This document shows positions 2,157 to 60,440 of a stretch of DNA of 64,000 bases, one piece after another. The translations under genes were made by a program, and so were the position numbers. Location: the NCBI RefSeq assembly GCF_030384885.1, contig NZ_CP128615.1. The stretch is one strand, 5' to 3'. Position 1 is the stretch's first letter. Each line of letters begins with the position of its first letter. This stretch comes from Escherichia coli. Its GTDB lineage: Bacteria; Pseudomonadota; Gammaproteobacteria; Enterobacterales; Enterobacteriaceae. The notes under the pieces are model-generated. The model made no database searches. It was not told where the DNA came from and was given only the letters and a program-made list of their open reading frames with translations.

Positions 2157-2445
2157 GTCAGCTGCTTCTCAGTCGGGCACAATTCAGAAATAAAGCTGTA
2201 TGGCCAACGATGTCACTTCAGGCTGGAAAAGTGCGGATCCGGTTTTGCCTTTTTTCGGATCTGAGCGGGAAAAGTGAGAAACCAACATAGGTGTAACATA
2301 TCCATATGCCGGGCATCTGCATAGGCAAAGCATACGCATATACCTACCATCTGCATATGTAACACCTATACAAGCCGGGCTTGCAGGCATATACTTCACC
2401 TATGCGGGAATACTCCCTGGCACACTCAGCATATGAGGAAAAACC

Positions 2446-2676
2446 ATGCGCACAGTTTCGATATTTAAAAACGGCAATAACCGCGCCATCCGTCTGCCCC
2501 GGGACCTGGATTTTGATGGCGTCAGCGAGCTGGAGATCGTCCGGGAAGGGGACAGCATCATTCTGCGTCCCGTCCGGCCGACCTGGGGCTCGTTCGCGCA
2601 GCTGGACAGGGCCGATCCGGACTTTATGGCGGAGCGTGAGGATGTGGTCAGCGATGAAGGACGCTTTGAGCCATGA
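2446..2676 (+). CDS. vapB: VapB/VagC antitoxin (AbrB/SpoVT-type)
   Basis: 76-aa protein MRTVSIFKNGNNRAIRLPRDLDFDG...; 4-bp overlap with downstream PIN toxin gene; palindrome-rich promoter region upstream (2280-2445). Confidence 0.9.
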   Translation: MRTVSIFKNGNNRAIRLPRDLDFDGVSELEIVREGDSIILRPVRPTWGSFAQLDRADPDFMAEREDVVSDEGRFEP

Positions 2677-3089
2677 AGAAAACCTGGATGCTCGACACCA
2701 ACATCTGCTCGTTCATCATGCGCGAGCAGCCGGCAGCGGTGCTGAAGCGCCTGGAGCAGGCGGTGCTGCGCGGTGATCGCATTGTGGTCTCGGCCGTGAC
2801 GTATGCCGAGATGCGCTTCGGCGCCACCGGCCCGAAGGCCTCGCCGCGCCATATTCAGCTGGTCGACGCGTTCTGCGCGCGCCTCGATGCCGTCCTGCCC
2901 TGGGACCGCGCCGCGGTGGACGCCACGACGGACATCCGGGTGGCGCTGCGCCTAGCCGGGACGCCGATCGGCCCGAATGACACGGCCATTGCCGGGCACG
3001 CCATCGCGGCGGGCGCCATCCTGGTGACGAACAATGTGAGAGAGTTTGCGCGGGTCCCGGGCCTGGTGCTGGAAGACTGGGTGAAATAA
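2673..3089 (+). CDS. vapC: VapC/VagD PIN-domain toxin
   Basis: 138-aa PIN protein MKKTWMLDTNICSFIM... with conserved acidic residues; coupled to vapB. Confidence 0.9.
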   Translation: MKKTWMLDTNICSFIMREQPAAVLKRLEQAVLRGDRIVVSAVTYAEMRFGATGPKASPRHIQLVDAFCARLDAVLPWDRAAVDATTDIRVALRLAGTPIGPNDTAIAGHAIAAGAILVTNNVREFARVPGLVLEDWVK

Positions 3090-3130
3090 TCCCGTAATAA
3101 TTTCCGTGACGGAGACGACAGACATGAATG

Positions 3131-3192
3131 GGCTTTGTTGAATAAATCGAACTTTTGCTGAGTTGAAGGATCAGATCACGCATCCTCCCGAC
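3131..3192 (+). mobile_element. IS903 left-end fragment (62 bp)
   Basis: Identical to the first 62 bp of the intact IS903 copy at 23487 (GGCTTTGTTGAATAAATCGAACTTTTGCTGAG...); ends abruptly at the start of the IS3-family element. Confidence 0.8.
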
Positions 3193-3292
3193 TGGATTTG
3201 CCCCTATATTTCCAGACACCTGTTATCACTTAATGGAGTGACCCCGAGCCCGTAGACAAATCTGCCCTATAGTTTGAGCATAGGAGGAGTCT

Positions 3293-3577
3293 ATGGGCAC
3301 ATCACGTTTTACCCCTGAATTTAAGGAAGAGGCCGTCCGCCAGATCACCGAGCGGGGCTATTCTATTGCTGAAGTATCTGAACGGCTCGGCGTGTCGGCG
3401 CACAGCCTATATAAATGGCTCCGGGCTGTTAAGCCTGACAACAGTGGACAGCAGGCACAGGATTTACTGGATGCCAGAACAGAAATTCTCAGGCTGAAAG
3501 CACAGCTTAAACGCACTGAGGAAGAGCGGGATATTCTGAAAAAGGCAGCGCGGTACTTTGCAAGGGAGCCCGACTGA
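3293..3577 (+). CDS. IS3-family transposase OrfA (HTH)
   Basis: MGTSRFTPEFKEEAVRQITERGYSIAEVSERLGVS... typical IS3 OrfA with leucine-zipper-like C-terminus. Confidence 0.85.
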   Translation: MGTSRFTPEFKEEAVRQITERGYSIAEVSERLGVSAHSLYKWLRAVKPDNSGQQAQDLLDARTEILRLKAQLKRTEEERDILKKAARYFAREPD

Positions 3578-3624
3578 AGTATCGCTTTATCAACGATCAC
3601 CGTGAAATCTGGTCGATCGTTACA

Positions 3625-4212
3625 ATGTGTCGGGTCCTTAAGGTTGCCCGTGCCGGATTTTATGTCTGGCTCCATAACCCTGTATCTGCCGGAGAAAAGG
3701 ATAACCAGCGACTGCTGGAACTCATCCGCGACTCCTATACGCTGAGTGGTGGAGTTTACGGTTATCGCAGGGTTCATGGCGATCTTCGCGAAATTGGCGA
3801 AGTGTGCAGCAGAAACCGGGTTGCCAAAATCATGAGGAAAAACAGGATTCAGGCTATACATGGTTATAAAGTGCCACGCGGGAGCCGGGGACGACCGTCA
3901 CTGATAGCGCCTAATCACGTGCGGCGTGAATTTACTGTAGTGAAGCCCAATCAGGTGTGGGTCACCGACATCACCTACATCCGCACCTGGCAGGGCTGGC
4001 TGTACCTGGCAGTGGTTATCGATCTTTTTGCCCGTAATGTGGTGGGCTGGTCGATGAAGCCGACACTGTCGCGCGAGCTGGCACTGGATGCGCTGCTGAT
4101 GGCGGTCTGGCGACGTAAACCTGAAGAAAACGTCATTGTGCACAGCGATAGTAATAATGCCGATGTCAGTCTTTACCACCACTTAGTTTGCCGTTTAACC
4201 AGATTGGTGTGA
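3625..4212 (+). pseudogene. IS3-family transposase OrfB, 5' part, disrupted after the HSD motif by an IS110-family insertion
   Basis: Translation matches IS3 OrfB up to VIVHSD (about 4149) then runs into unrelated sequence and stops. Confidence 0.75.
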
Positions 4213-5525
4213 TTACTGATGCAGTGAAGACCTTCCCGCATCCTGACTCACACAGCGATCGACCTTTTGTGTCCTGCCCTGGACCCGTCGGTTGCCGGAA
4301 GCGCCTTCATGCGAGGCATCTCCTCACCGATGCGCGTGACTCAAGAAGGGCCTGACGGCTTGTCTCGTTACTGTCCTGTCCGGGTTATCTGTCTGGAGAT
4401 TCAACTCTGTTTCCTCACAGGAGCTCTGTCATGGTTGATAAAGTTACCGAAGCTGCCGTTGTGGGTGGCGTGGATACACATAAAGATTTGCACGTTGCCG
4501 CTGTCGTAGATCAGAACAATAAAGTCCTTGGGACTCAGTATTTCTCCACAACACGACAAGGTTACCGGCAGATGCTGGCATGGATGACCTCGTTTGGGAC
4601 ATTAAAGCGAATTGGTGTTGAGTGCACAGGTACCTATGGTTCCGGTTTGCTTCGTTATTTTCAGAACGCCGGGTTAGAAGTTCTTGAGGTGACTGCTCCA
4701 GACCGGATGGAGCGACGCAAACGGGGTAAAAGTGACACAATTGATGCTGAATGTGCCGCTCATGCAGCATTCTCAGGCATCAGGACAGTTACTCCCAAAA
4801 CGCGTGATGGCATGATTGAGTCCCTGCGGGTATTAAAAACTTGCCGAAAAACAGCAATATCAGCCCGCAGAGTCGCTCTCCAGATTATCCATTCAAATAT
4901 TATCTCTGCCCCGGATGAATTACGTGAACAGCTCAGAAATATGACGCGCATGCAGCTCATCAGGACCCTGGGTTCCTGGAGACCTGATGCCAGTGAATAC
5001 CGCAATGTAACCAACGTTTATCGCATTTCATTAAAGTCCCTTGCCCGACGCTATCTCGAGTTACATGACGAAATCGCTGATCTGGATGTCATGATTGCGG
5101 CAATTGTCGACGAGTTGGCACCTGAGCTGATTAAACGTAATGCTATCGGATACGAAAGCGCTTCACAGTTGCTGATCACTGCCGGAGACAATCCTCAACG
5201 GTTAAGATCAGAATCAGGATTTGCGGCACTGTGTGGTGTCAGCCCGGTCCCCGTTTCTTCTGGAAAAACGAACCGTTACCGACTTAATCGTGGTGGAGAT
5301 CGTGCTGCAAATAGTGCACTTCACATCATCGCCATCGGACGCTTACGAACTGACGCAAAAACAAAGGAATATGTCGCCAGGCGTGTAGCCGAAGGACATA
5401 CAAAAATGGAAGCGATACGCTGTCTAAAGCGATATATCTCCCGCGAAGTTTACACGTTACTGCGCAATCAAAACAGGCGGATCAACAGTATCCCGATAAC
5501 AGCTTGACTCTTAGAAGGGCGTCCA
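4150..5525 (+). mobile_element. IS110-family insertion sequence nested inside the IS3-family orfB
   Basis: About 1.38 kb insert between HSD and QGSQY codons of the IS3 orfB; encodes an IS110-type transposase; no obvious terminal inverted repeats, as usual for this family. Boundaries approximate. Confidence 0.6.
4431..5507 (+). CDS. IS110-family transposase
   Basis: 358 aa, N-terminus MVDKVTEAAVVGGVDTHKDLHVAAVVD... (DEDD-type RuvC-like fold family signature). Confidence 0.85.
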   Translation: MVDKVTEAAVVGGVDTHKDLHVAAVVDQNNKVLGTQYFSTTRQGYRQMLAWMTSFGTLKRIGVECTGTYGSGLLRYFQNAGLEVLEVTAPDRMERRKRGKSDTIDAECAAHAAFSGIRTVTPKTRDGMIESLRVLKTCRKTAISARRVALQIIHSNIISAPDELREQLRNMTRMQLIRTLGSWRPDASEYRNVTNVYRISLKSLARRYLELHDEIADLDVMIAAIVDELAPELIKRNAIGYESASQLLITAGDNPQRLRSESGFAALCGVSPVPVSSGKTNRYRLNRGGDRAANSALHIIAIGRLRTDAKTKEYVARRVAEGHTKMEAIRCLKRYISREVYTLLRNQNRRINSIPITA

Positions 5526-5589
5526 GGGCAGTCAGTATGGCAGTGATGACTGGCAGCGGTTCTGCCGGGCCAATAATCTGGTACCGAGC

Positions 5590-5802
5590 ATGAGCCGTCG
5601 CGGCAACTGCTGGGATAATGCAGTGGCAGAATCGTTCTTCAGTTCACTCAAAAAAGAGCGCATCAGGAAGCGGATATACAAAACCCGGGACATGGCCCGG
5701 GCGGATATTTTCGATTATATTGAAGTGTTCTACAACCGGGCCCGGCGCCACAGTCATCTCGGCGGCGTCAGCCCGGAGGCCTTCGAAAAGGCCTCGCAGT
5801 GA
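5590..5802 (+). pseudogene. IS3-family transposase OrfB, 3' part (frame open from about 5527: GSQY...SMSRRGNCWDNAVAESFF)
   Basis: C-terminal DDE-region motifs of IS3 transposases resume immediately after the IS110 insert. Confidence 0.75.
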
Positions 5803-5909
5803 GGACAGAAACTGTCTACCGGAGCGTGGTCACTCCACATTTAAAGAAACGAGCTTTGGTAAACATACCTGTAATGACTCCATAAAATGGCGCGTCAAAC
5901 GACACCTAA

Positions 5910-7985
5910 TCAATTAACCCCAAGCGCCTTAAACACGGCATCGACGGGGTCTGCATAAAAGCTGATCTGGAATTTTGAGAACAACTCAGCAGGAACCGTT
6001 GGAATATCTGAGGCTGAGGCCATTGGGAGCAAAATACGCTTTGCGCCACTGTCCATAGCTAACTGAAGACTGCCTGCAAGATCTTGAACAGGATTGACGA
6101 CACCACCTAAAGTCATCTCACCCAAAACAACCATCTGCTCTTGAATCGGTCGGTTCATCAGAATTGAACAGAACGCAATTAATGCAGCGAGCGATGACTT
6201 TGTACTTGGCCCCGTATTGTGGAGCTCAACAACATGGAGGTGATACTCATGATCAGAAAACTTCGCCGACGCACTGATTCTATTCAGGTTACCTTTGAAA
6301 TAATCAAAGCCAACACGCACAGCTTCTTTCGCTGCGGTATTCGAACCAAGGCCAGACACTGAGTGTTTACCAGAACCAGCCATCATCTGGGTTTCATAGC
6401 GATATAACCCAAGCTGCCCAGTGCTTCCCTGAGTAACCAAGTGCACGACACCAGCGCGAGGTAAGCCCTCAGGAATTAGCTTGCTGCCACCTTGTTCCGG
6501 TACATTGATGAAGAATTCTTCTAATGAATCGTTATCGATGTAGCTAAAGTGCACATCAAAAAATTCCATTCCGCCAAGCTTTTTCAATTGCTCTTTGACT
6601 CTACGTCTAGTTTCCAGCGCATAGGTCAGGCAGGCTCTTACATCATCTTTTGTGTACTGTGCGTCGGGGTGTAGTAGCTTTAACAAGCCCGAAACAGTTC
6701 TGCGTACAGCAATTACATCACGCTGATTAAGGTTATTACCGAGTTTGAAGAACTTATCGATAGCATCCGCAAAACTTCTTTTGCGCATTTCACGCATGTA
6801 TTCAGCAAGATAGTCTGTGATTAATCCGTAACTATTGGTGAAAAACTCAGGACGCATCTTCGGTATTTCCCATCCAGGAATATAGGAATGGAAACGGTCA
6901 AAAAAAGCAGTGTCAATCATGGCTTCAGGAAAAGGTGCCAACAGATGACTGGTCTTCACCAGTGTCTCAACGCTTTGATTGATGTTACCGACGAATACCA
7001 TGGAAGCCTTCGCTTCGATTGAATCACGACCACGGGCAAAAGACCCTGACGCCATATAATCTTTCATTATTTGGACGCCGTCTTTGTCTTTAAAGTTAAT
7101 ACCCGCTACTTCATCAAAGGCGACAACATCCCACATTCCGACCAACCCAACTTGGCGCGAGCTCATGTTATAGAACAAGTTCGCCACAGTTGTTTGTCCG
7201 CCCGAGACAAGCAATGAGTTTGGTGAGCACTCCTTGTAGACATGGCTTTTACCTGTCCCTCTTGGTCCGAGCTCACAAACGTTGTAGTTGTTTTCAACGA
7301 ATGGGATCATACGAGTGATAAGATGCCATTTCACCCGATGCTCTAAGTTGGTTGGCTCCATACCCACGGAACGAAGCAACACATCCATCCACTGATCGGT
7401 ACTAAAATGTCTTCTGGTTGAAAACACCTCATCCATGTTCATGGACGGCATTTGTATCGGTTTTAAACTCATAATGGAGAAAGGTGATGTCTTCTGACCT
7501 TCCTCAAAGAAATACTGGACGGTAATAATGCACCAGATGCCGCCAGTTAATAATTTTTCGTTGTCTTGTACTATTTTGGTCGGTACAAGGGCATCCTTGA
7601 TACCCAGGTTCGACAACGCAGCTTCATAGACGTCTTTTTTCTGGTTGAGCTTAACGCTTACTTTGTCGATGATTTTAAACGTGCCGCGTTCACGGATCAG
7701 TGACTTCACTTTCTCCGCTTCATCTGGTCGGACATAGTTCTCAGCCAAGATTTTTTTTACATTATCAAGGCCTTGCATTACAACTTCGTCGTCATCGGAC
7801 GCACAATACATGCCTAGTAAATACTCAAGCACATAGACAGGGACGTTAGCGCCTTCTTTCAATTGCTTTGTCAGATCTTTTCGAACGACACGGCCTTTAA
7901 AATATTGGTTGAGCAATGCGTCTAAATCGGCGCTTTGCATCTGATTTTTTTCGTCTTTATGATCTTGTGAAAAATCAGTTGTCAT
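5910..7985 (-). CDS. brxL: BREX protein BrxL (Lon-like protease domain protein)
   Basis: 691 aa; last gene of a brxA-brxB-brxC-pglX-pglZ-brxL syntenic block; Walker-like GPRGTGKSH and C-terminal Lon-protease-like region. Confidence 0.85.
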   Translation of the reverse strand: MTTDFSQDHKDEKNQMQSADLDALLNQYFKGRVVRKDLTKQLKEGANVPVYVLEYLLGMYCASDDDEVVMQGLDNVKKILAENYVRPDEAEKVKSLIRERGTFKIIDKVSVKLNQKKDVYEAALSNLGIKDALVPTKIVQDNEKLLTGGIWCIITVQYFFEEGQKTSPFSIMSLKPIQMPSMNMDEVFSTRRHFSTDQWMDVLLRSVGMEPTNLEHRVKWHLITRMIPFVENNYNVCELGPRGTGKSHVYKECSPNSLLVSGGQTTVANLFYNMSSRQVGLVGMWDVVAFDEVAGINFKDKDGVQIMKDYMASGSFARGRDSIEAKASMVFVGNINQSVETLVKTSHLLAPFPEAMIDTAFFDRFHSYIPGWEIPKMRPEFFTNSYGLITDYLAEYMREMRKRSFADAIDKFFKLGNNLNQRDVIAVRRTVSGLLKLLHPDAQYTKDDVRACLTYALETRRRVKEQLKKLGGMEFFDVHFSYIDNDSLEEFFINVPEQGGSKLIPEGLPRAGVVHLVTQGSTGQLGLYRYETQMMAGSGKHSVSGLGSNTAAKEAVRVGFDYFKGNLNRISASAKFSDHEYHLHVVELHNTGPSTKSSLAALIAFCSILMNRPIQEQMVVLGEMTLGGVVNPVQDLAGSLQLAMDSGAKRILLPMASASDIPTVPAELFSKFQISFYADPVDAVFKALGVN

Positions 7986-23174: not shown

Positions 23175-23486
23175 TTATTTAGGTAGCGGGCCTAATTGCA
23201 CCCCATCAGGATAATACTTCCAGCCATCGCGAATTTTGACATTTTCATCCCACGGAAGTTTGTATTCGCCATTGGCAAGATCGCGCACCCAGGTCAGGTA
23301 ATTCTCGCGTTCGCCTCCCGGTTTGCCGACATAGCCCCGGCAGCCAAGGTTGAAAATATTGTTTTCCAACGCCCAGTTTTCACGCGCTTTATCCACCAGG
23401 CGCGGGAACAGCTCTGCGGTAACAATTTCCCATGGGTTGCGGTGCCCCTGCTGAATGACGTTACCGTCATAATTGCAGACCGTACC
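23175..23486 (-). pseudogene. C-terminal fragment of an unidentified gene, truncated by IS903
   Basis: Open frame runs from the IS903 boundary (23486) to stop at 23175; no N-terminus. Confidence 0.3.
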
Positions 23487-24543
23487 GGCTTTGTTGAATA
23501 AATCGAACTTTTGCTGAGTTGAAGGATCAGATCACGCATCCTCCCGACAACACAGACCATTCCGTGGCAAAGCAAAAGTTCAGAATCACCAACTGGTCCA
23601 CCTACAACAAAGCTCTCATCAACCGTGGCTCCCTCACTTTCTGGCTGGATGATGGGGCGATTCAGGCCTGGTATGAGTCGGCAACGCCTTCATCACGGGG
23701 AAGGCCCCAGCGCTATTCTGACCTTGCCATCACGACTGTGCTGGTCATTAAACGCGTATTCAGGCTGACCCTGCGCGCTGCGCAGGGCTTTATTGATTCC
23801 ATTTTTACACTGATGAATGTTCCGTTGCGCTGCCCGGATTACAGCTGTGTCAGCAGGCGGGCAAAGTCGGTTAACGTCAGTTTCAAAACGTTCACCCGGG
23901 GTGAAATCGCGCATCTGGTGATTGATTCCACCGGGCTGAAGGTCTTTGGTGAAGGCGAGTGGAAAGTCAAAAAGCATGGCCAGGAACGCCGTCGTATATG
24001 GCGAAAGTTGCATCTGGCAGTTGACAGCAACACACATGAAATCATCTGTGCAGACCTGTCGCTGAACAATGTGACGGACTCAGAAGCCTTCCCGGGTCTT
24101 ATCCGGCAGACTCACAGAAAAATCAGGGCAGCATCGGCAGACGGCGCTTACGACACCCGGCTCTGTCACGATGAACTGCGGCGTAAGAAAATCAGCGCGC
24201 TTATCCCTCCCCGAAAAGGTGCGGGTTACTGGCCCGGTGAATATGCAGACCGTAACCGTGCAGTGGCTAATCAGCGAATGACCGGGAGTAATGCGCGGTG
24301 GAAATGGACAACAGATTACAACCGTCGCTCGATAGCGGAAACGGCGATGTACCGGGTAAAACAGCTGTTCGGGGGTTCACTGACGCTGCGTGACTACGAT
24401 GGTCAGGTTGCGGAGGCTATGGCCCTGGTACGAGCGCTGAACAAAATGACGAAAGCAGGTATGCCTGAAAGCGTGCGTATTGCCTGAAAACACAACCCGC
24501 TACGGGGGAGACTTACCCGAAATCTGATTTATTCAACAAAGCC
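23487..24543 (+). mobile_element. IS903 (IS5 family), intact 1057-bp copy, no target-site duplication
   Basis: Terminal inverted repeats GGCTTTGTTGAATAAATC at both ends; flanking 9-mers differ (gaccgtacc vs agatggaat). Confidence 0.9.
23519..24487 (+). CDS. IS903 transposase
   Basis: 322 aa [45 protein letters not shown]... Confidence 0.9.
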
Positions 24544-24625
24544 AGATGGAATAGCCCCGCTCGGTGATTTGGCGGACAGCTTCTTCCTTAAATTCAGGGG
24601 TAAAACGTGGTGTGCCCATAGACTA
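24544..24625 (-). mobile_element. 82-bp remnant of an IS3-family element (orfA start region)
   Basis: Minus strand encodes MGTPRFTPEFKEEAVRQITERGYSI, near-identical to the orfA start at 3293; cut on both sides by IS903 and the IS407-like element. Confidence 0.5.
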
Positions 24626-39165: not shown

Positions 39166-39462
39166 TTGTTATCAAGGAGACCATATATGTCATTAAAGCA
39201 TAGTGATGAATTTAAGCGTGATGCAGTTCGCATAGCACTCACTAGTGGCTTAACACGCCGTCAAGTTGCGTCAGATTTAAGTATTGGGCTTTCCACGCTT
39301 GGGAAATGGATCGCATCAATTTCCGATGAAACTAAAATTCCTACCCAAGACACTGATCTTCTGCGTGAGAATGAACGTTTACGCAAAGAGAACCGTATCC
39401 TTCGGGAGGAGAGGGAGATATTAAAAAAGGCAGCAATATTTTTCGCAGTACAAAAGCTGTGA
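39166..39462 (+). CDS. IS1133 transposase OrfA
   Basis: ...MSLKHSDEFKRDAVRIALTSGLTRRQVASDLSIGLSTLGKWI... Confidence 0.8.
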   Translation: MLSRRPYMSLKHSDEFKRDAVRIALTSGLTRRQVASDLSIGLSTLGKWIASISDETKIPTQDTDLLRENERLRKENRILREEREILKKAAIFFAVQKL

Positions 39463-40316
39463 GATTTCAGTTTATTACGGATTACCGTGGCTCTCTCTCA
39501 CGTTCACGCATATGTCGTTTGATGGGCGTAACAGATCGTGGTTTACGTGCATGGAAACGCCGTCCTCCATCACTGCGCCAGCGTCGTGATCTTATACTTC
39601 TAGCGCATATACGTGAGCAGCATCGGTTGTGTTTGGGGAGCTATGGTAGGCCGCGTATGACAGAAGAGTTGAAAGCGCTGGGCCTGCAGGTTGGGCAGCG
39701 TCGGGTTGGACGTTTGATGCGCCAGAATAACATTACAGTTGTTCGAACGCGTAAATTCAAACGGACAACGGATAGTCATCATACCTTCAACATTGCACCG
39801 AACCTATTAAAACAAGACTTTAGCGCAAGCGCACCCAACCAGAAATGGGCAGGCGATATCACTTATGTTTGGACCAGAGAAGGATGGGTCTATCTTGCTG
39901 TTATCCTTGACCTGTATTCCCGTCGCGTGATTGGCTGGGCAACAGGTGATCGATTAAAGCAGGATCTTGCATTAAGGGCACTGAATATGGCGTTGGCTTT
40001 ACGCAAACCACCACCGGGTTGTATTCAACACACAGACCGTGGGAGCCAATATTGCGCTCATGAATATCAAAAGCTACTGCTCAAACATCAATTGCTGCCG
40101 TCCATGAGCGGGAAAGGCAATTGTTTTGATAACTCCGCAGTAGAAAGCTTCTTTAAATCATTAAAGGCTGAGTTGATTTGGCGCAGACACTGGCAAACAA
40201 GGCGAGATATTGAGATTGCAATCTTCGAATATATAAATGGCTTTTATAATCCACGCCGAAGACATTCAACACTCGGCTGGAAATCGCCGGTGGCATTTGA
40301 GAAAAAAGCCGCTTAA
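39459..40316 (+). CDS. IS1133 transposase OrfB (DDE)
   Basis: 285 aa with DDE-region motifs (WAGDITYVWT...DLYSRRVIGW...HTDRGSQY). Confidence 0.85.
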   Translation: MRFQFITDYRGSLSRSRICRLMGVTDRGLRAWKRRPPSLRQRRDLILLAHIREQHRLCLGSYGRPRMTEELKALGLQVGQRRVGRLMRQNNITVVRTRKFKRTTDSHHTFNIAPNLLKQDFSASAPNQKWAGDITYVWTREGWVYLAVILDLYSRRVIGWATGDRLKQDLALRALNMALALRKPPPGCIQHTDRGSQYCAHEYQKLLLKHQLLPSMSGKGNCFDNSAVESFFKSLKAELIWRRHWQTRRDIEIAIFEYINGFYNPRRRHSTLGWKSPVAFEKKAA

Positions 40317-42131: not shown

Positions 42132-43070
42132 TTAGCGTAGGATTTCGCCCTCTCCCGCAAACGACCCCATAGCCTCCGCAACCTGACCATCGTAGTCACG
42201 CAGCGTCAGTGAACCCCCGAACAGCTGTTTTACCCGGTACATCGCCGTTTCCGCTATCGAGCGACGGTTGTAATCTGTTGTCCATTTCCACCGCGCATTA
42301 CTCCCGGTCATTCGCTGATTAGCCACTGCACGGTTACGGTCTGCATATTCACCGGGCCAGTAACCCGCACCTTTTCGGGGAGGGATAAGCGCGCTGATTT
42401 TCTTACGCCGCAGTTCATCGTGACAGAGCCGGGTGTCGTAAGCGCCGTCTGCCGATGCTGCCCTGATTTTTCTGTGAGTCTGCCGGATAAGACCCGGGAA
42501 GGCTTCTGAGTCCGTCACATTGTTCAGCGACAGGTCTGCACAGATGATTTCATGTGTGTTGCTGTCAACTGCCAGATGCAACTTTCGCCATATACGACGG
42601 CGTTCCTGGCCATGCTTTTTGACTTTCCACTCGCCTTCACCAAAGACCTTCAGCCCGGTGGAATCAATCACCAGATGCGCGATTTCACCCCGGGTGAACG
42701 TTTTGAAACTGACGTTAACCGACTTTGCCCGCCTGCTGACACAGCTGTAATCCGGGCAGCGTAGCGGAACGTTCATCAGAGAAAAAATGGAATCAATAAA
42801 GCCCTGCGCAGCGCGCAGGGTCAGCCTGAATACGCGTTTAATGACCAGCACAGTCGTGATGGCAAGGTCAGAATAGCGCTGAGGTCTGCCTCGTGAAGAA
42901 GGTGTTGCTGACTCATACCAGGCCTGAATAGCTTCATCATCCAGCCAGAAAGTTATGGAGCCACGGTTGATGAGGGCTTTATTGTAGGTGGGCCAGTTGG
43001 TTATTTTGAACTTTTGCTTTGCCACGGAACGGTCTGCGTTGTCGGGAAGATGCGTGATCTGATCCTTCAA
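42132..43070 (-). pseudogene. IS903 transposase, C-terminus replaced by Tn5393 insertion
   Basis: 312-aa ORF identical in most of its length to the other IS903 transposases but ending ...AEAMGSFAGEGEILR inside the Tn5393 IR. Confidence 0.8.
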
Positions 43071-43102
43071 CTCAGCAAAAGTTCGATTTATTCAACAAAG
43101 CC
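42169..43102 (-). mobile_element. IS903 left-end 934 bp (remainder of the IS903 copy split by Tn5393)
   Basis: Includes transposase ORF 42132-43070 whose last codons now read into the Tn5393 inverted repeat; terminal IR ends at 43102. Confidence 0.85.
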
Positions 43103-43406
43103 CATTCAGTCCTCAATTTGTGCATTTTTTAAACGAAAAAAGGGTGTCTAATACGGTGAAATCATAGTATTACCAAAGTAATAAATAAAAAGTTATTTAA
43201 ATCAGTAATTTAGATTTGATTTGTAATACCTGGGTAATACCGCAGCATGGCTAAATTTTGTTTTTTTTCTTTTAAATCAGTGCGATAGCGTGATTTATCA
43301 CGCTGCGTTAGGTGTATAGCAGGTTAAGGGATAAAAAATCATCTTTTTTTGGTAGGGCGATCTCCGTAGGTTAAGGGGCATTTGGCTAAAAAGCGTCCTA
43401 TTCTTT

Positions 43407-44124: not shown

Positions 44125-45181
44125 GGCTTTGTTGAATAAATCAGATTTCGGGTAAGTCTCCCCCGTAGCGGGTTGTGTTTTCAGGCAATACGCACGCTTT
44201 CAGGCATACCTGCTTTCGTCATTTTGTTCAGCGCTCGTACCAGGGCCATAGCCTCTGCAACCTGACCATCGTAGTCACGCAGTGTCAGTGAACCTCCGAA
44301 CAGCTGTTTTACCCGGTACATCGCCGTTTCCGCTATCGAGCGACGGTTGTAATCTGTTGTCCATTTCCACCGCGCATTACTCCCGGTCAGCCGCTGATTC
44401 GCAACAGCACGGTTACGGTCTGCATATTCACCGGGCCAGTAACCCGCGCCTTTTCGGGGCGGGATAAGCGCGCTGATTTTCTTACGCCGCAGTTCATCGT
44501 GACAGAGTTGGGTGTCGTAAGCGCCGTCTGCCGATGCTGCCCTGATTTTTCTGTGAGTCTGCCGGATAAGACCCGGGAAGGCTTCTGAGTCCGTCACATT
44601 GTTCAGCGACAGGTTTGCACAGATGATTTCATGTGTGTTGCTGTCAACTGCCAGATGCAACTTTCGCCATATACGACGGCGTTCCTGGCCATGCTTTTTG
44701 ACTTTCCATTCGCCTTCACCAAAGACCTTCAGCCCGGTGGAATCAATCACCAGATGCGCGATTTCACCCCGGGTGAACGTTTTGAAACTGACATTAACCG
44801 ACTTTGCGCGCTTGCTGACACTGGTGTAATCCGGGCAGCGCAACGGAACATTCATCAGTGTAAAAATGGAATCAATAAAACCCTGTGCAGCCCGCAGGGT
44901 CAACCTGAACACGCGTTTAATGACCAGAACGGTGGTGATGGCGAGATCAGAATAGCGCTGAGGTCTTCCCCGTGATGAAGGCGTTGCCGACTCATACCAG
45001 GCCTGAATAGCTTCATCATCCAGCCAGAAAGTTATGGAGCCACGGTTGATGAGGGCTTTATTGTAGGTGGGCCAGTTGGTTATTTTGAACTTTTGCTTTG
45101 CCACGGAATGGTCTGCGTTGTCGGGAAGATGCGTGATCTGATCCTTCAACTCAGCAAAAGTTCGATTTATTCAACAAAGCC
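44125..45181 (-). mobile_element. IS903, intact copy, no target-site duplication
   Basis: Terminal IRs present; transposase 44181-45149; flanking 9-mers differ. Confidence 0.9.
44181..45149 (-). CDS. IS903 transposase
   Basis: 322 aa [33 protein letters not shown]... Confidence 0.9.
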   Translation of the reverse strand: MKDQITHLPDNADHSVAKQKFKITNWPTYNKALINRGSITFWLDDEAIQAWYESATPSSRGRPQRYSDLAITTVLVIKRVFRLTLRAAQGFIDSIFTLMNVPLRCPDYTSVSKRAKSVNVSFKTFTRGEIAHLVIDSTGLKVFGEGEWKVKKHGQERRRIWRKLHLAVDSNTHEIICANLSLNNVTDSEAFPGLIRQTHRKIRAASADGAYDTQLCHDELRRKKISALIPPRKGAGYWPGEYADRNRAVANQRLTGSNARWKWTTDYNRRSIAETAMYRVKQLFGGSLTLRDYDGQVAEAMALVRALNKMTKAGMPESVRIA

Positions 45182-45673
45182 GTCTGTGTTGTAAAATGGC
45201 GCCGAAAGCCCGGCGTAGCCGGTTGCCGGGCTATAAATTCTGCCACCCTACCCCCTGCCCTGATTAGCCTTAACTCGCGAACAGCAATGAAGAAGTCAAA
45301 GTAATCCCTTTTAACCCCGGTGAGCGGGCTTTACGGCGTTTACGACGTAAAGGGCGTGATTTCCGGGGCCTAAGCGGCGGCAGCTTGCTGCTGACGCTTA
45401 GGGGGATGTTCATCAACTATTTCAGCGACACCAGGGAACTTAACACGGTAGCTGCAAAGCCCTAATCCCGCTCACCGCCACGCAGCTGCCGTACGTCCCC
45501 CACGGGGGTGCGCAGTGCTGCGCGCGGGAACGGCGGCCCGTCTGCGGGACGCGGCGCCGTACTGCGCGTTAGCGGCCGCACGCGGCCGGTTACGGGGGAC
45601 ACTCCGCCATACGACCAGCGACCCGCTGAGCTGCACAATCCACAGATAACACAAGCTACATACATGTCGATAT

Positions 45674-46245
45674 GGGAATCGGCCCACCTTGCCGGGCGCC
45701 GGTGCCGTGTGGAAATCCGCCCACCTTGCCGCGCGCCGGTGCCGTGTGGGAATCCGCCCACCTTGCCGCGCGCCGGTGCCGTGTGGGAATCCGCCCACCT
45801 TGCCGGGCGCCGGTGCTGTGTGGAAATCCGCCCACCTTACCGGGCGCCGGTGCTGTGTGGAAATCCGCCCATCTTGCCGGGCGCCGGTGCCGTGTGGGAA
45901 TCCGCCCACCTTACCGGGCGCCGGTGCCGTGTGGGAATCCGCCCACCTTACCGGGCGCCGGTGCCGTGTGGGAATCCGCCCACCTTACCGGGCGCCGGTG
46001 CTGTGTGGAAATCCGCCCACCTTGCCGCGCGCCGGTGCCGTGTGGGAATCCGCCCACCTTGCCGCGCGCCGGTGCCGTGTGGGAATCCGCCCACCTTGCC
46101 GGGCGCCGGTGCTGTGTGGAAATCCGCCCACCTTACCGGGCGCCGGTGCTGTGTGGAAATCCGCCCATCTTGCCGGGCGCCGGTGCCGTGTGGGAATCCG
46201 CCCACCTTACCGGGCGCCGGTGCTGTGTGGAAATCCGCCCATCTT
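45674..46245. repeat. Tandem array of about 15.5 copies of a 37-bp repeat (GAATCCGCCCACCTTGCCGCGCGCCGGTGCCGTGTGG with point variants)
   Basis: Contiguous head-to-tail repeats without spacers; downstream of a truncated repA paralog, i.e. in the position of an incC/incA-type iteron array. Confidence 0.85.
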
Positions 46246-46292
46246 CATGACAAAAATTTGTCAAATGACAGGCTCATGTGTGCTGATTTATG

Positions 46293-46595
46293 TCAGACGG
46301 GATTTTGCTTATCAATTATTGAGAACAGAAATTTTCCTGAATCATCAATACTATACTTAGCAAGTAAAGGTGTTTTCTCATTTATCTGCTTGAGTGCAGG
46401 ATCAAGGAAAGATCGTTTCAACTCTGCCAAGTTCTTCTGCTGGGATTCCGGTAAGACGAAACGGTCATTTAACCAAGCATGAGTAGTAACCCATAAGCCT
46501 GAAGATTTGAATTGAGCAAGACTTTCATAAAGGCGGATCGTCCGGGGATTTCGAAGACTGCCACAATCGCGGAGCGAGTAGGTGGTGAACTGGTT
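46293..46595 (-). pseudogene. C-terminal fragment of a second Rep_3-family RepA, truncated by IS1
   Basis: Minus-strand translation ...YSLRDCGSLRNPRTIRLYESLAQFKSSGLWVTTHAWLNDRFVLPESQQ... aligns with the C-terminus of the intact RepA at 54177-55043. Confidence 0.6.
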
Positions 46596-53316: not shown

Positions 53317-53707
53317 TTATCACCTCATGACGTTTTTTGTCATTTTGAACAAAAAGTGTCATGTTGCAAGAAAAAAATCATATTGTTTTGATTTCGCTCT
53401 CAACAGAAGGGGGATGAAGCTCGACGGGCGTGCTACTAAATCACACTGCAGCAACACGCAGACGCACTTTTGACCATCAACAGCAACTCATACAAAAGGG
53501 CTTTGAGAAAGGTATTCAACTTGCAAGACAGGAGAGTCATTCAGAAGGATTCTGATTTTAGTTACGACCAGTGCAATGCTGAGCCTTATGTATCAGCGCT
53601 CGCCGCAGCCATGTAACCGAGCGTAGCGAGCGAACTGGCGAGGAAGCGAAGAGGAACCGTTCCGGCAGATAGCTCTTACGCTCAGCACAAGAAGAGTTTT
53701 CCATCCT

Positions 53708-54125
53708 CTGTGGGAAACAGGTCAACTTTAATGGACGCTCCGGACTATGGGAAACAGGTCAACTTCGCGGACGGCCCGGACTATGGGAAACAGGTCAACT
53801 TCACGGGCGGCCGGGAGTGTGGGGAACAGGTCAACTTCGCGGACGGCCCGGATTATGGGAAACAGGTCAACTTCGCGGGCGGCCGGGACTGTGGGAAACA
53901 GGTCAACTTTGCAGACGGCCCGGACTGTGGGAAACAGGTCAACTTCGCGGGCGGCCGGGAGTGTGGGGAACAGGTCAACTTCGCGGACGGCCCGGACTAA
54001 GGGAAACAGGTCAGCTTCTCGGACGGCCCGGACTATGGGAAACAGGTCAACTTCTCGGACGGTCGGGAGTGTGGGAAACAGGTCAAGTTAGGCAAGCACT
54101 ATGGGAAACACAGCAAGTTCAGTAT
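53708..54125. repeat. Array of about 11 direct 36-bp repeats (TGGGAAACAGGTCAACTT core); iteron/copy-control locus downstream of repA
   Basis: Regular 36-bp period read directly; located between repA stop and parA start. Confidence 0.85.
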
Positions 54126-54176
54126 CCCCCCATATGTCAGCAACAAACTAAGGGGGGAGGAAATAAAAATTACAGA

Positions 54177-58040: not shown

Positions 58041-58610
58041 GTCCTTTCCTCAGTTGAATAGTTAGCCGTGCAATTTTACCACACCTCAATCATCGTCAGA
58101 TGAGTGCCACTCTGTCGCGACAGTGACTTTCACGAGAGTGATTTTCACATACTAAAATAATAAGCAGCCATATAACAACGTAATTAAATTACCTGACGGC
58201 CGCTCTGGCCGGATCCGACTTTTATGTTATTCCACAGTTTCCGGAAGTGTACCACGCACACGGAATAACCACAGCGCCCTTTCAGGGTGGTGAGCGGCCG
58301 GTCACGGGGCAGGGGAGGGGCACAACATATATGGTCACTGACAGCTGGAAACACCGCTACATCTTGTGTTTCCGGGCCGCTGCGCGCCGGCGGGGCTGAA
58401 TCAGATCCGGAACTGGTGGTTTTCGGATCTGCGGTGGAGAAATGAGAAAACAGGATATGCGCAGCATATCCACATGCCACGCATCTGCATAGGGCAGACA
58501 TACGCATATGTCAGTCATCTGCATATGTTACACCTATACAGACCAGTCCGGCAGGCATATACTGCACATATGTACTCACACATCATGCATGATCAGCCGG
58601 AGGAACATCC

Positions 58611-58841
58611 ATGCGCACAGTTTCGATATTTAAAAACGGCAATAACCGCGCCATCCGTCTGCCCCGGGACCTGGATTTTGACGGCGTCAGCGAGCTGGAG
58701 ATCGTCCGGGAAGGGGACAGCATCATTCTGCGTCCCGTCCGGCCGACCTGGGGCTCGTTCGCGCAGCTGGACAGGGCCGATCCGGACTTTATGGCGGAGC
58801 GTGAGGATGTGGTCAGCGATGAAGGACGCTTTGAGCCATGA
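58611..58841 (+). CDS. vapB: VapB/VagC antitoxin, second copy
   Basis: Protein identical to the copy at 2446; promoter region related but diverged. Confidence 0.9.
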   Translation: MRTVSIFKNGNNRAIRLPRDLDFDGVSELEIVREGDSIILRPVRPTWGSFAQLDRADPDFMAEREDVVSDEGRFEP

Positions 58842-58931
58842 AGAAAACCTGGATGCTCGACACTAACATCTGCTCGTTCATCATGCGCGAGCAGCCGGCA
58901 GCGGTGCTGAAGCGCCTGGAGCAGGCGGTGC

Positions 58932-58932
<1 letters not shown>
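58838..58932 (+). pseudogene. vapC: vapC, truncated after about 31 codons by an IS21-family element
   Basis: MKKTWMLDTNICSFIMREQPAAVLKRLEQAVL then IS terminal sequence TGTCAACGCCACGATG. Confidence 0.85.

Positions 58933-60440
<1,508 letters not shown>

What the first reader, a model, noticed from the sequence alone, without database searches (positions are those of the whole stretch)
3193..5882. Nested insertion: IS110-family element inside the transposase gene of an IS3-family element
The IS3-family orfB is split exactly between its HSD and QGSQY codons by a 1.38-kb element encoding an IS110-type transposase, with the orfB reading frame resuming after the insert. This suggests the IS110-like element targeted a specific sequence inside another IS.
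Basis: seen in the sequence. Interest (0 to 1): 0.35.

Follow-up and report, generated by a model that had tools for sequence, protein, structure and literature searches.

The report
RNA-guided IS nested inside ISEc15
A small RNA-guided jumping gene (an ISEc21-type IS110-family element, probably ISKpn60) sits at its usual programmed target, the catalytic-aspartate codon of the transposase gene of another jumping gene (ISEc15); this is real, but it is already described and widespread on enterobacterial plasmids.

Summary
The host is ISEc15 (IS3 family, window 3234-5837). A 1374-bp IS110-family element at 4150-5523 splits its orfB between GAT (the D of HSD) and CAG (the Q of QGSQY). There is no target duplication, and the reading phase is kept because 1374 = 3 x 458. 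An uninterrupted ISEc15 occupies the identical vapC-ISEc15-brxL locus in plasmid pHNTH9F11-1.

The guest is 92.6% nt and 348/358 aa identical to ISEc21, with the same length, ends and guide sequences. Siddiquee et al. [quoted passage not shown] IncR-plasmid literature already records ISEc15 next to vagCD disrupted by ISKpn60.

In the window, the guide loop (4237-4299) matches the ISEc15 site perfectly, 9/9 on the left and 8/8 on the right. Among relatives from 80 loci (68-100% aa identity), 55 of 59 unique left flanks carry the same codons, and the guides covary with the flanks. A second loop (4336-4381) matches, and covaries with, the element's own ends. That is consistent with an IS621-like donor-binding loop, but no core dinucleotide is shared.

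Interest is low.

The parts
3131..3192 (.). Remnant of an IS903/IS102-type (IS5-family) end, between vapC and the IS2 remnant. Context only, not part of the nested pair.
   Evidence: It matches the ends of the ~1-kb repeats elsewhere in the window. In E. coli genomes it matches places annotated as IS903B family. The literature describes a delta-IS102/delta-IS2/ISEc15 locus beside vagCD.
3193..3233 (.). 41-bp remnant of the end of IS2 (IS3 family), truncated by ISEc15.
   Evidence: Query positions 71/73-113 match places annotated 'IS3-like element IS2 family transposase' at 98-100% identity.
3234..4149 (+). ISEc15 left part. It holds the left inverted repeat (TGGAGTGACC...), orfA (3293-3577), an A6G frameshift motif near 3540, and the proximal part of orfB (3574-4149), which ends in ...V-H-S-D.
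   Evidence: Together with 5524-5837 it is 1229/1230 identical to the annotated 'IS3-like element ISEc15 family transposase, programmed frameshift' in L001. Pfam hits are HTH_Tnp_1, HTH_21 and rve positions 3-73 of 102.
4150..5523 (+). IS110-family element of the ISEc21 group (probably ISKpn60). It is 1374 bp, in the same orientation as orfB, with no terminal inverted repeats and no target duplication.
   Evidence: Boundaries come from comparing empty and occupied sites. It aligns without gaps to the ISEc21 reference at 92.6% identity, with identical ends. Other copies start exactly at 4150 with a different left flank (one search hits H24-H38).
4150..4159 (+). Left end of the IS110-type element (AGTAATAATG). 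It would be the right-donor half-site and the -10-like AATAAT of the promoter formed when the ends are joined in a circle.
   Evidence: It is conserved as AGTAAKAAT or AGTCAKA across 59 relatives and covaries with the RNA segment at 4367-4375. The junction promoter is read from the sequence. Junction promoter formation was shown for ISEc21 in PMC11187229.
4237..4299 (+). Target-binding loop, equal to the seekRNA core (IS positions 88-150). An outer stem and an inner GAC/GUC hairpin enclose an internal loop.
   Evidence: RNAalifold on 53 unique relatives gives an outer stem with many compensatory pairs (CG/UA/GC/AU) and an inner stem present in 53/53 sequences. The minimal active ISEc21 seekRNA is positions 89-147.
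4251..4260 (+). Left target guide, CACAGCGATC. It has the same sense as the top strand of the left half-site.
   Evidence: It is identical to window 4141-4149 (9/9) plus the first base of the right half-site. In the family it matches its own flank better than shuffled flanks (6.51 vs 5.82 of 9; 0 of 20000 shuffles reach the observed value).
4273..4283 (+). Right target guide, CCTGCCCTGGA. Its reverse complement is TC+CAGGGCAG+G.
   Evidence: CAGGGCAG equals window 5524-5531 (8/8). The preceding TC equals the last two bases of the IS right end, in 50 of 52 relatives, and does not match the target.
4336..4381 (+). Candidate donor-binding loop (IS positions 187-232): GUGAC-[UCAAGAAGGGCCU]-GAC..hairpin..GUC-[UCGUUACUGUCCU]-GUCC. 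AGAAGGGC (4344-4351) equals the IS right end. The reverse complement of GTTACTGTC (4367-4375) equals GAC+AGTAA(C), the left junction.
   Evidence: IS left-end position 4 (A or C) covaries perfectly with the RNA (39 A:A, 20 C:C, 0 discordant). RDG versus left end scores 5.24 vs 4.68 of 6, with 0 of 20000 shuffles reaching it. The pair next to the inner stem varies as CG 20, GU 19, GC 4, AU 4. The outer helix was not resolved.
4431..5507 (+). Transposase/recombinase gene (358 aa) with an N-terminal DEDD RuvC-like domain and a C-terminal Tnp domain. Motif residues read from the sequence: D15, E64, D102, D105 and S276-S277-G278.
   Evidence: Pfam PF01548 at 3.4e-20 and PF02371 at 1.9e-12. It is 348/358 identical to TnpEc21. 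This exact protein was seen on at least 1000 contigs.
5504..5523 (+). Right end of the IS110-type element. TTGACT (5504-5509) is -35-like and overlaps the tnp stop codon. AGAAGGGCGTC would be the left-donor half-site.
   Evidence: CTTGAC..TTAGAAGGGCGTC is conserved in almost all 80 loci. Joining the ends gives TTGACT-N17-AATAAT.
5524..5837 (+). ISEc15 right part. It holds the distal orfB (5524-5802, beginning Q-G-S-Q-Y) and the right inverted repeat (...GGTCACTCCA).
   Evidence: It continues the L001 ISEc15 sequence directly after position 4149. Pfam hits are rve 74-102 of 102, rve_2 and rve_3.

Best explanation
An ISEc21-group IS110-family insertion sequence (most likely the one ISfinder calls ISKpn60) has inserted by RNA-guided site-specific recombination into its natural target. 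That target is the DNA encoding H-S-D|Q-G-S-Q-Y, the second catalytic Asp of the DDE motif, in the transposase gene orfB of the IS3-family element ISEc15.

Steps, with what is shown and what is inferred:
1. The element leaves a donor site as a circle in which its ends abut. This creates a promoter (TTGACT-17-AATAAT) that drives the 281-nt upstream non-coding region and tnp. The sequence is consistent with this. It was shown experimentally for ISEc21, not here.
2. The RNA folds into a target-binding loop (window 4237-4299). Its 5' side (CACAGCGAUC) has the sense of the left half-site and would pair with the bottom strand. [quoted passage not shown] Shown here: perfect 9+8 complementarity to ISEc15, a covarying stem, and guides that covary with flanks in the family. 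Physical pairing is inferred from the IS621 and ISEc21 experiments.
3. A second loop (4336-4381) matches the element's own right and left ends and would hold the donor. Covariation is shown here. Function is inferred by analogy with the IS621 donor-binding loop.
4. The DEDD/Ser recombinase exchanges strands between T|C of the target and C|A of the donor junction. No base is duplicated (shown).

Consequences (inferred):
- ISEc15 can no longer make its DDE transposase.
- Its inverted repeats remain, so it could still be moved in trans and carry its guest.
- The guest keeps both target halves around it, which ISEc21 needs for excision.

In this window the 2605-bp nested unit is an inherited block shared by hundreds of enterobacterial plasmids.
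For: - Boundaries and empty site. L001 is the same vapC-ISEc15-brxL locus without the insert; 300/300 left-flank bases are identical and the ISEc15 is 1229/1230 identical.
- Family assignment. The insert is 92.6% nt and 348/358 aa identical to ISEc21, aligns without gaps, and has the same ends.
- Guides: they are identical to those of ISEc21 and match the ISEc15 site 9/9 and 8/8.
- Relatives: 80 loci at 68-100% aa identity are broken at orfB residues 192|193 in diverse IS3-family genes. Of the unique flanks, 55/59 have [H/N/Y/F]-[S/T]-D on the left and 46/52 have [Q/R]-G on the right.
- Guide-flank and guide-end covariation exceeds 20000 shuffles, whereas a control pairing does not.
- Target-loop structure with compensatory pairs. 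Donor-loop hairpin covariation.
- Internal control: a second, intact IS3-family orfB at 39459-40316 has the same protein motif (HTD|RGSQY) but matches the guides only 6/9 and 5/8, and it is unoccupied.
- Literature:
  - ISEc21's target was traced to the second-D codons of IS3-family transposases. The NCR is required. The seekRNA is positions 89-147. There is no duplication, and a circle with a junction promoter forms (PMC11187229).
  - ISEc15 next to vagCD was disrupted at the same nucleotide by ISKpn60 in 41 IncR plasmids (PMC9412624).
  - LTG/RTG strand rules and handshake guides come from PMC11208160 and PMC11208158.
- Spread: the whole nested unit is covered at >=80% in 251 PLSDB plasmids, many at 100% identity.
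Against: - Nothing was tested experimentally for this copy.
- The name ISKpn60 could not be checked against a reference sequence.
- Identity to ISEc21 (92.6% nt) is below the usual isoform threshold, so activity is extrapolated from a relative.
- Guide-flank matching in the family is imperfect. Several relatives sit at sites whose Ser codon is AGC while their guide reads TCN, giving 3-4 mismatches of 9.
- The shuffle test does not remove shared ancestry.
- Unlike IS621, no core dinucleotide is shared by donor and target. The IS621 mechanism therefore cannot be transferred in detail.
- A 58-nt seekRNA alone sufficed in the published ISEc21 assay, so a need for the second loop is not established.
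- Rfam has no model that hits the region.
- The whole-NCR MFE fold is not better than shuffles (z = -0.49).
Confidence: 0.93

Rival explanations
1. The 1.37-kb segment is a native part of this IS3-family element, such as a passenger gene or an intron/intein-like insert inherited with it, and not a separate mobile element.
For: Its length is a multiple of three and it lies in the same orientation as orfB. The nested unit is inherited as one block in many plasmids.
Against: - Uninterrupted ISEc15 copies exist at 99.4-99.6% identity (1230 bp). One sits at the identical locus.
- ISEc24 also lacks the segment.
- The segment occurs with a different left flank.
- The segment also occurs in many unrelated IS3-family hosts.
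- It contains in-frame stop codons.
Confidence: 0.01
2. The IS110-family element inserted here by chance or by loose regional preference, with no sequence-specific targeting of IS3-family genes.
For: At least one ISEc21/ISKpn60 insertion outside an IS3 gene is reported, in mrkH (PMC12217459). A few relatives have non-IS3 flanks (L014, L036-L038, L056, L085).
Against: - 55 of 59 unique left flanks and 46 of 52 right flanks carry the same codons at the same junction, always in the same orientation.
- The site matches the guides 17/17.
- The second IS3-family orfB in the window matches the guides poorly and is unoccupied.
Confidence: 0.02
3. Targeting is specific, but the transposase protein reads the target DNA directly and the RNA matches are incidental.
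For: The target is strongly conserved. Much of the guide-flank agreement therefore reflects invariant positions (the shuffled mean is already 5.8 of 9).
Against: - Variable positions covary. Examples of flank / guide pairs are CATACCGAC / CATACCGAC, AACACCGAT / AACACCGAT and CGCGG / CGCGG.
- The guides sit in a structured internal loop whose stems covary.
- Deleting the NCR abolishes ISEc21 movement, and reprogramming the seekRNA redirects it (PMC11187229).
Confidence: 0.03
4. The insertion into ISEc15 is a recent event in the lineage this window comes from, rather than an inherited block.
For: The element looks intact, with a full ORF, ends and guides. It is flanked by both target halves, so it should be mobile. 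Empty ISEc15 alleles at the same locus still circulate.
Against: The complete 2605-bp unit is 100% identical in plasmids of Klebsiella, Escherichia and Raoultella. It was reported at the same nucleotide beside vagCD in 41 IncR plasmids. A single old event followed by spread is the more economical reading.
Confidence: 0.1

Closest known systems
ISEc21 (IS110 family; Siddiquee et al. 2024, Nat Commun, PMC11187229)
   Same: - Same length (1374 bp), with identical terminal sequences (AGTAATAATG...TTAGAAGGGCGTC).
- A 358-aa transposase that is 348/358 identical.
- An upstream 281-nt non-coding region with identical guide segments at positions 102-111 and 124-134.
- The same target (the second-D codon of the DDE motif in IS3-family orfB), the same orientation, and no duplication.
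   Different: - 101 substitutions (92.6% nt identity), so by the usual ISfinder rule it is a distinct named element, not an ISEc21 isoform.
- The host IS is ISEc15, not ISCfr6, ISEc92 or ISEc93.
- ISEc15 matches the shared guides perfectly (17/17). The ISEc21 reference site (CATAGCGAC|CAGGGAAG) has 3 mismatches.
ISKpn60 in ISEc15 beside vagCD on IncR plasmids (PMC9412624)
   Same: The gene order is the same: vagCD (vapBC), delta-IS102, delta-IS2, then ISEc15 interrupted by an IS110-family element at one fixed nucleotide.
   Different: The name could not be verified, because no ISKpn60 reference sequence is available to these tools. On the other side this window carries a BREX brxL gene, as in the 407-kb plasmid pHNTH9F11-1, not a typical small IncR backbone.
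IS621 and its bridge RNA (Durrant et al. 2024, PMC11208160; Hiraizumi et al. 2024, PMC11208158)
   Same: - A DEDD + Tnp-domain recombinase.
- A non-coding RNA upstream of tnp.
- An internal loop whose 5' side has the sense of the left target and whose 3' side is complementary to the right target.
- A second loop of the same design that matches the element's ends.
- Bases next to the right-hand guides that match the non-cognate partner, like handshake guides.
   Different: - A different subgroup: the transposase is 358 aa against about 326 aa, and there is no Rfam or close sequence relationship.
- No shared CT-type core. The two bases 5' of the exchange point are AY in the target and TC in the donor, and nothing is duplicated.
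- The target is a protein-coding motif of another IS, not a REP sequence.
IS4321/IS5075 and other IS1111-group elements that insert into the ends of other mobile elements (named from my own knowledge; IS1111 group as described in PMC11187229)
   Same: IS-in-mobile-element targeting by a DEDD transposase with an RNA guide. The target is a conserved sequence carried by another transposable element.
   Different: In the IS1111 group the non-coding region lies downstream of tnp, there are subterminal inverted repeats, and the order of the top- and bottom-strand matches is reversed. Their targets are terminal repeats or attC sites, not a coding motif.

Membership tests
IS110 family | Transposase with an N-terminal DEDD (RuvC-like) domain, PF01548 | tested here: met
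   PF01548 scores 72.8 bits against a cutoff of 29, over residues 13-150. D15, E64, D102 and D105 are present as sequence motifs. Assigning them as the catalytic residues is an inference.
IS110 family | C-terminal Transposase_20 domain (PF02371) with a conserved Ser-Gly | tested here: met
   PF02371 scores 47.8 bits against a cutoff of 21.3, over residues 238-315. An S276-S277-G278 motif is present.
IS110 family | No terminal inverted repeats and no target-site duplication | tested here: met
   The ends AGTAATAATG and AGAAGGGCGTC are not inverted copies of each other. Comparing empty and occupied sites shows no duplicated base.
IS110 family | Long non-coding region upstream of tnp that encodes a guide RNA | tested here: met
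   The 281-nt region at 4150-4430 holds a structured loop with 9-nt and 8-nt matches to the two halves of the target.
IS110 family | Circular intermediate with abutted ends that forms a promoter | not testable with these tools
   Joining the ends would give TTGACT-N17-AATAAT. Circle formation was shown for ISEc21 but not for this copy.
ISEc21 itself (isoform, by the usual ISfinder criteria of >=95% nt or >=98% aa identity; from my own knowledge) | Near-identity to the ISEc21 reference | tested here: not met
   1273/1374 nt (92.6%) and 348/358 aa (97.2%) against NZ_LT903847.1 1802057-1803430. It is a close relative with the same guides, not an isoform.
ISKpn60 | Identity to the ISfinder ISKpn60 entry | not testable with these tools
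   No reference sequence is held. The only support is the published description of ISKpn60 in ISEc15 beside vagCD and the interchangeable use of the two names in PMC12217459. The cluster look-up gave no IS name.
IS3 family (ISEc15) | orfA (HTH) and orfB (rve DDE integrase core) joined by a programmed -1 frameshift, with terminal inverted repeats TG...CA | tested here: met
   HTH_Tnp_1, HTH_21, rve and rve_2/rve_3 are found. With the insert removed, the element is 1229/1230 identical to a copy PGAP annotates as 'IS3-like element ISEc15 family transposase, programmed frameshift'. The ends read TGGAGTGACC...GGTCACTCCA.
IS3 family (ISEc15) | 3-4 bp target duplication flanking the element | tested here: inconclusive
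   No matching short repeat is seen at 3231-3233 versus 5838-5840, nor in L002 or L003. Here the element abuts a truncated IS2.
Bridge RNA of the IS621 type | Target-binding internal loop with a left guide (top-strand sense) and a right guide (complementary to the top strand) | tested here: met
   It coincides with the minimal ISEc21 seekRNA at positions 89-147.
Bridge RNA of the IS621 type | Donor-binding internal loop that pairs with the element's joined ends | tested here: inconclusive
   Sequence matches to both ends, perfect covariation at left-end position 4 (39 A:A and 20 C:C) and covariation in the inner hairpin all support it. The outer helix was not resolved, and the published 58-nt RNA worked without it.
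Bridge RNA of the IS621 type | Core dinucleotide shared by target and donor, covered by all four guides and present at both junctions | tested here: not met
   There is no duplicated or shared base at the junctions when the Asp codon is GAT, and only one (C) when it is GAC. The positions 5' of the exchange point are AY in the target and TC in the donor.

The most novel reading that the evidence does not exclude
The whole ISEc21 clade may carry a complete two-loop bridge RNA and not only the published 58-74-nt seekRNA. This would cover the relatives found at 68-100% aa identity in alpha-, beta- and gammaproteobacteria.

Under this reading, the second loop (IS positions ~187-232) reads the element's own ends. 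The positions that form the shared 'core' in IS621 are here programmed purely as handshake pairs: the right target guide carries the donor's TC, and the right donor guide carries the target's GAC. Donor and target would then need no common core, and insertion would leave no duplication. That would make the clade a natural core-free variant of bridge recombination, specialised as a hyperparasite of IS3-family transposase genes.
Probability: 0.3. Interest if true: 0.4.

Novelty: already known. Interest (0 to 1): 0.15.

Why it matters
For this window it matters little. It is a correctly spotted but already published arrangement. It serves as an annotation marker for a plasmid lineage: vagCD/vapBC, delta-IS102, delta-IS2, then ISEc15 carrying an ISEc21-type element.

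More generally it is a clean natural example of RNA-guided DNA insertion. The guide is tuned to a sequence kept constant by protein function, the catalytic Asp of a rival transposase. That sequence is therefore multi-copy, mobile and harmless to the host cell.

Two things may interest people engineering bridge recombinases. The family-wide data here extend the published six-host observation to dozens of IS3-family hosts. They also point to a donor loop and a core-free exchange geometry. These are refinements of a known mechanism, not a new kind of system.

Tried and rejected
- Rfam 15 scan of 3000-6200 at E<=1 gave no hit, so no curated bridge/seekRNA family covers this.
- MFE folding of the whole 291-nt NCR was no better than shuffles (z = -0.49) and did not reveal the loops. 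Only the family alignment did.
- RNAalifold on positions 140-245 paired GGGC with GUCC. Those pairs are invariant and so uninformative, and I do not rely on them.
- My hand-proposed outer helix for the donor loop (GAUGC with UUAUC) was not supported column by column. Only 2-44 of 53 sequences paired, probably because of register differences.
- I looked for an ISEc15 target duplication and found none.
- The exact-protein cluster look-up gave only generic names such as 'IS110 family (RNA-guided) transposase', not an IS name.
- I considered a shared 2-nt core (TC or AT) as in IS621. I rejected it because the observed junctions GAT|AGTAAT and GCGTC|CAGGG do not fit any shared core.
- I considered heteroduplex resolution of unlike cores. 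I rejected it as the general rule because all 57 GAY left junctions keep the target's bases and 50 of 52 right junctions keep the donor's TC. This fits top-strand-determined products, as proposed for another IS110 element in bioRxiv 10.1101/2025.10.25.684509.
- tblastn with ISEc15 OrfB at E<=1e-3 missed many distant IS3 hosts on the short C-terminal side (37 of 65 detected). Flank codon motifs were used instead.


Full report
**1. What is in the sequence**

ORF listing and reading of 2400-6600 show the following, all on the + strand:
- a vapB/vapC-like pair at 2446-3089
- a short orfA at 3293-3577
- an orfB that runs from 3574 and stops making sense after ...V-H-S-D at 4149
- a 358-aa ORF at 4431-5507
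- the remainder of orfB from 5524 (Q-G-S-Q-Y...) to 5802
- brxL on the minus strand (5910-7985)

Pfam assigns the 358-aa protein to DEDD_Tnp_IS110 (PF01548, 3e-20) and Transposase_20 (PF02371, 2e-12). orfA hits HTH_Tnp_1. The proximal part of orfB hits HTH_21 and rve profile positions 3-73. The distal part hits rve positions 74-102 plus rve_2/rve_3. One integrase-core domain is therefore split in two by an IS110-type gene.

**2. Exact boundaries and the empty site**

A query made by joining the two halves found uninterrupted 1230-bp copies annotated 'IS3-like element ISEc15 family transposase' at 99.4-99.6% identity. It also found ISEc24 at 88.6%.

One ISEc15 copy, in plasmid pHNTH9F11-1, lies between the same vapC and brxL genes as in the window. 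The 300 bases to its left are identical to the window, and its ISEc15 differs at 1 of 1230 positions.

Alignment gives the empty site ...GTGCACAGCGAT|CAGGGCAGTCAG... and the occupied site ...CACAGCGAT[AGTAATAATGCC...TTAGAAGGGCGTC]CAGGGCAGT.... From this:
- The insert is 4150-5523, which is 1374 bp.
- Its position is unambiguous. The last base of the insert differs from the last base of the left flank, and the first base of the insert differs from the first base of the right flank.
- Nothing is duplicated.
- ISEc15 spans 3234-5837.

This is preceded by an IS903/IS102-type end at 3131-3192. That matches the published 'delta-IS102, delta-IS2, ISEc15' locus beside vagCD (PMC9412624).

**3. Identity of the guest**

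The literature search led to two sources.
- PMC9412624 reports ISEc15 beside vagCD disrupted at the same nucleotide by ISKpn60 in 41 IncR plasmids.
- Siddiquee et al. 2024 (PMC11187229) characterised ISEc21.

I fetched the reference copy they used (NZ_LT903847.1 1802057-1803430). PGAP annotates it as 'IS110-like element ISEc21 family transposase'. The window's element aligns to it without gaps over 1374 bp at 92.6% identity, and the proteins are 348/358 identical. The first 13 and last 20 bases are identical, and so is the non-coding region from 56 to 115 and from 117 to 136, which holds the guide segments.

By the usual ISfinder thresholds (my own knowledge) this makes it a separate named element of the ISEc21 group. 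The published context makes ISKpn60 the likely name, but I could not verify that (one search gave only generic names). PMC12217459 uses both names for one insertion.

**4. Mechanism: what is already shown elsewhere**

For ISEc21, Siddiquee et al. showed the following:
- The element forms a circle with abutted ends that creates a promoter.
- The upstream non-coding region is needed in cis or in trans.
- A 74-nt seekRNA co-purifies with the transposase, and a 58-nt version (positions 89-147) suffices.
- Insertion is oriented and makes no duplication.
- Changing the guide redirects insertion.

For IS621, Durrant et al. defined the bridge RNA:
[quoted passage not shown] - A second loop does the same for the donor.

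Hiraizumi et al. showed top-strand cleavage 3' of the core. They also showed 'handshake' bases that pair with the non-cognate DNA after exchange.

**5. Mechanism: what this window and its relatives show**

*Guides in the window.* IS positions 102-111 (window 4251-4260) read CACAGCGATC. This equals the 9 bases left of the insertion plus the first base to its right. Positions 124-134 (4273-4283) read CCTGCCCTGGA, whose reverse complement is TC-CAGGGCAG-G. CAGGGCAG is the 8 bases right of the insertion. ISEc15 is thus a perfect 17/17 match. The ISEc21 reference site has three mismatches to the same guides.

*Relatives.* A scan of one genome per species with the transposase returned 80 loci at 68-100% aa identity, from Enterobacterales, Pseudomonas, Halomonas, Burkholderiales, Rhizobiales, Rhodobacterales and others.
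- tblastn with ISEc15 OrfB shows the flanks to be IS3-family orfB genes (26-99% identity) broken at residue 192|193 and always co-oriented.
- Of 59 unique loci with an intact left end, 55 have [H/N/Y/F]-[S/T]-D codons on the left.
- Of 52 with a right flank, 46 begin with [Q/R]-G.

*Covariation of guides with flanks.* Guides match their own flanks better than shuffled flanks. The left guide scores 6.51 vs 5.82 of 9 and the right guide 4.94 vs 4.56 of 8. In each case 0 of 20000 shuffles reach the observed value, whereas a control pairing does not differ. Shared ancestry inflates such tests. Even so, individual cases are telling: CATACCGAC / CATACCGAC, AACACCGAT / AACACCGAT, and CGCGG / CGCGG.

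*Target-loop structure.* RNAalifold on 53 unique sequences puts both guides in one internal loop. The loop is closed by an outer stem with several compensatory pair types and an inner GAC/GUC hairpin. This is the design of a target-binding loop, and it coincides with the published minimal seekRNA.

**6. A second loop**

Downstream, positions 187-232 (window 4336-4381) repeat the same layout with the same loop lengths: GUGAC-[UCAAGAAGGGCCU]-GAC...GUC-[UCGUUACUGUCCU]-GUCC.
- AGAAGGGC equals the element's right end.
- The reverse complement of (G)UUACUGUC is GAC-AGTAA, which is the left junction.
- Across the family the left end is either AGTAA or AGTCA, and the RNA is correspondingly UUACU or GUGACU. 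The counts are 39 and 20 with no exception.
- One AGCAA end has a GCU partner.
- The pair next to the inner stem varies as CG 20, GU 19, GC 4, AU 4.

I read this as a donor-binding loop. Its outer helix was not resolved. The published assay did not need it when only a 58-nt RNA was supplied deliberately, so its function remains an inference. A 2025 preprint argues that IS110 elements use both a truncated target-loop RNA and the full bridge RNA, and that integration is mainly a top-strand event. That would reconcile these observations.

**7. How it differs from IS621**

Donor and target share no core.
- The two bases 5' of the exchange point are A-Y in the target (GAY) and T-C in the donor (GTC).
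- The right target guide carries the donor's TC (50 of 52 relatives).
- The right donor guide carries GAC, the target's bases (28 of 59 exactly; the other 29 targets have GAT).
- Junctions always keep the top-strand configuration.

This is recorded as an unexplained refinement, not a claim.

**8. Internal control and spread**

The window holds a second IS3-family element whose orfB (39459-40316) is intact. Its site CACACAGAC|CGTGGGAG (H-T-D|R-G-S) matches the guides only 6/9 and 5/8, and it is unoccupied.

The complete 2605-bp nested unit is found at >=80% coverage in 251 PLSDB plasmids, many at 100% identity, in Klebsiella, Escherichia, Raoultella and others. In complete E. coli genomes, 477 of 5426 hold a place covering >=80% of the 1501-bp probe. 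The exact transposase protein was seen on at least 1000 contigs. The arrangement here is therefore most economically an inherited block.

**9. Verdict**

The feature belongs to a kind that has been experimentally dissected (ISEc21 seekRNA/bridge-RNA-guided insertion into IS3-family DDE codons). This specific host-guest pair is already in the plasmid literature. Novelty: already known. Interest: low (0.15).

The only points that go a little beyond the papers I read are three:
- the breadth of the clade-wide specialisation
- the covariation evidence for a donor loop
- the core-free, handshake-like geometry

Noticed in passing
window 3131-3233: Two stacked IS remnants lie between vapC and ISEc15: an IS903/IS102-type end (3131-3192) and an IS2 end (3193-3233). 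The locus is therefore a four-deep pile of insertions: IS102, then IS2, then ISEc15, then the ISEc21-type element.
   Followed up: partly
window 39166-40316: A second IS3-family element has an intact orfB (39459-40316, 41% identical to ISEc15 OrfB). Its HTD|RGSQY site is CACACAGAC|CGTGGGAG, which matches the guides poorly (6/9 and 5/8), and it is unoccupied.
   Followed up: partly
window 24546-24624 (minus strand): A 79-bp fragment is 94% identical to the start of ISEc15 orfA (3288-3366). It sits next to one arm of a ~1-kb inverted repeat and is probably a remnant of another ISEc15-like copy.
   Followed up: no
window 45525-46356 and 53662-54161: Two long tandem arrays, with periods of 37 bp (about 22 units) and 36 bp (about 14 units). 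They look like iterons and are possibly plasmid replication or partition repeats.
   Followed up: no
window 23486-24543, 42167-43118, 44125-45182: Three ~1-kb copies (95-97% identical) of an element whose end matches the IS903/IS102-type remnant at 3131-3192. Two are inverted relative to the first.
   Followed up: no
window 58420-58933 versus 2252-2768: A second, diverged (about 90%) copy of the vapB region and its upstream sequence lies 56 kb away, with no adjacent ISEc15.
   Followed up: no
L085 (NZ_CP049968.1, pCO_Eco4457-1) 1480-1510; also hits H24-H38: In about 15 large E. coli plasmids, the same IS110-type element keeps the ISEc15 right flank. Its left flank, however, is an unrelated gene ending in CTAAGAAGGGCTCAC, which mimics the element's own right end (TTAGAAGGGCGTC). 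This looks like a rearrangement through a donor-like pseudo-site.
   Followed up: partly
L036-L038 (Pusillimonas/Neopusillimonas), also L014: Relatives whose left flank ends in ...AGAAGGGGTC (like a right end) and whose right flank begins AGTAAAAGA (like a left end). These are insertions into a junction-like or donor-like sequence, or tandem copies, not into an IS3 gene.
   Followed up: no
L024, L032, L034, L043, L048, L061-L064 and others: Several relatives sit at sites that mismatch their left guide at the Ser/Thr codon (for example flank CACAGCGAC against guide CACTCTGAT). Either 3-4 mismatches of 9 are tolerated, or these copies moved together with their host IS after the guides drifted.
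   Followed up: no
window 4273-4274 and 4373-4375, with family data: The bases next to the right-hand guides match the non-cognate partner: TC from the donor in the target loop, and GAC from the target in the donor loop. No core is shared, unlike the CT core of IS621.
   Followed up: partly
window 5910-7985 (minus strand) and 1134-2156: The nested IS lies next to a BREX brxL gene (Lon-like protease). A P-loop/UvrD-like ORF lies upstream of vapBC, so the surroundings look like a defence and toxin-antitoxin island on a large plasmid.
   Followed up: no
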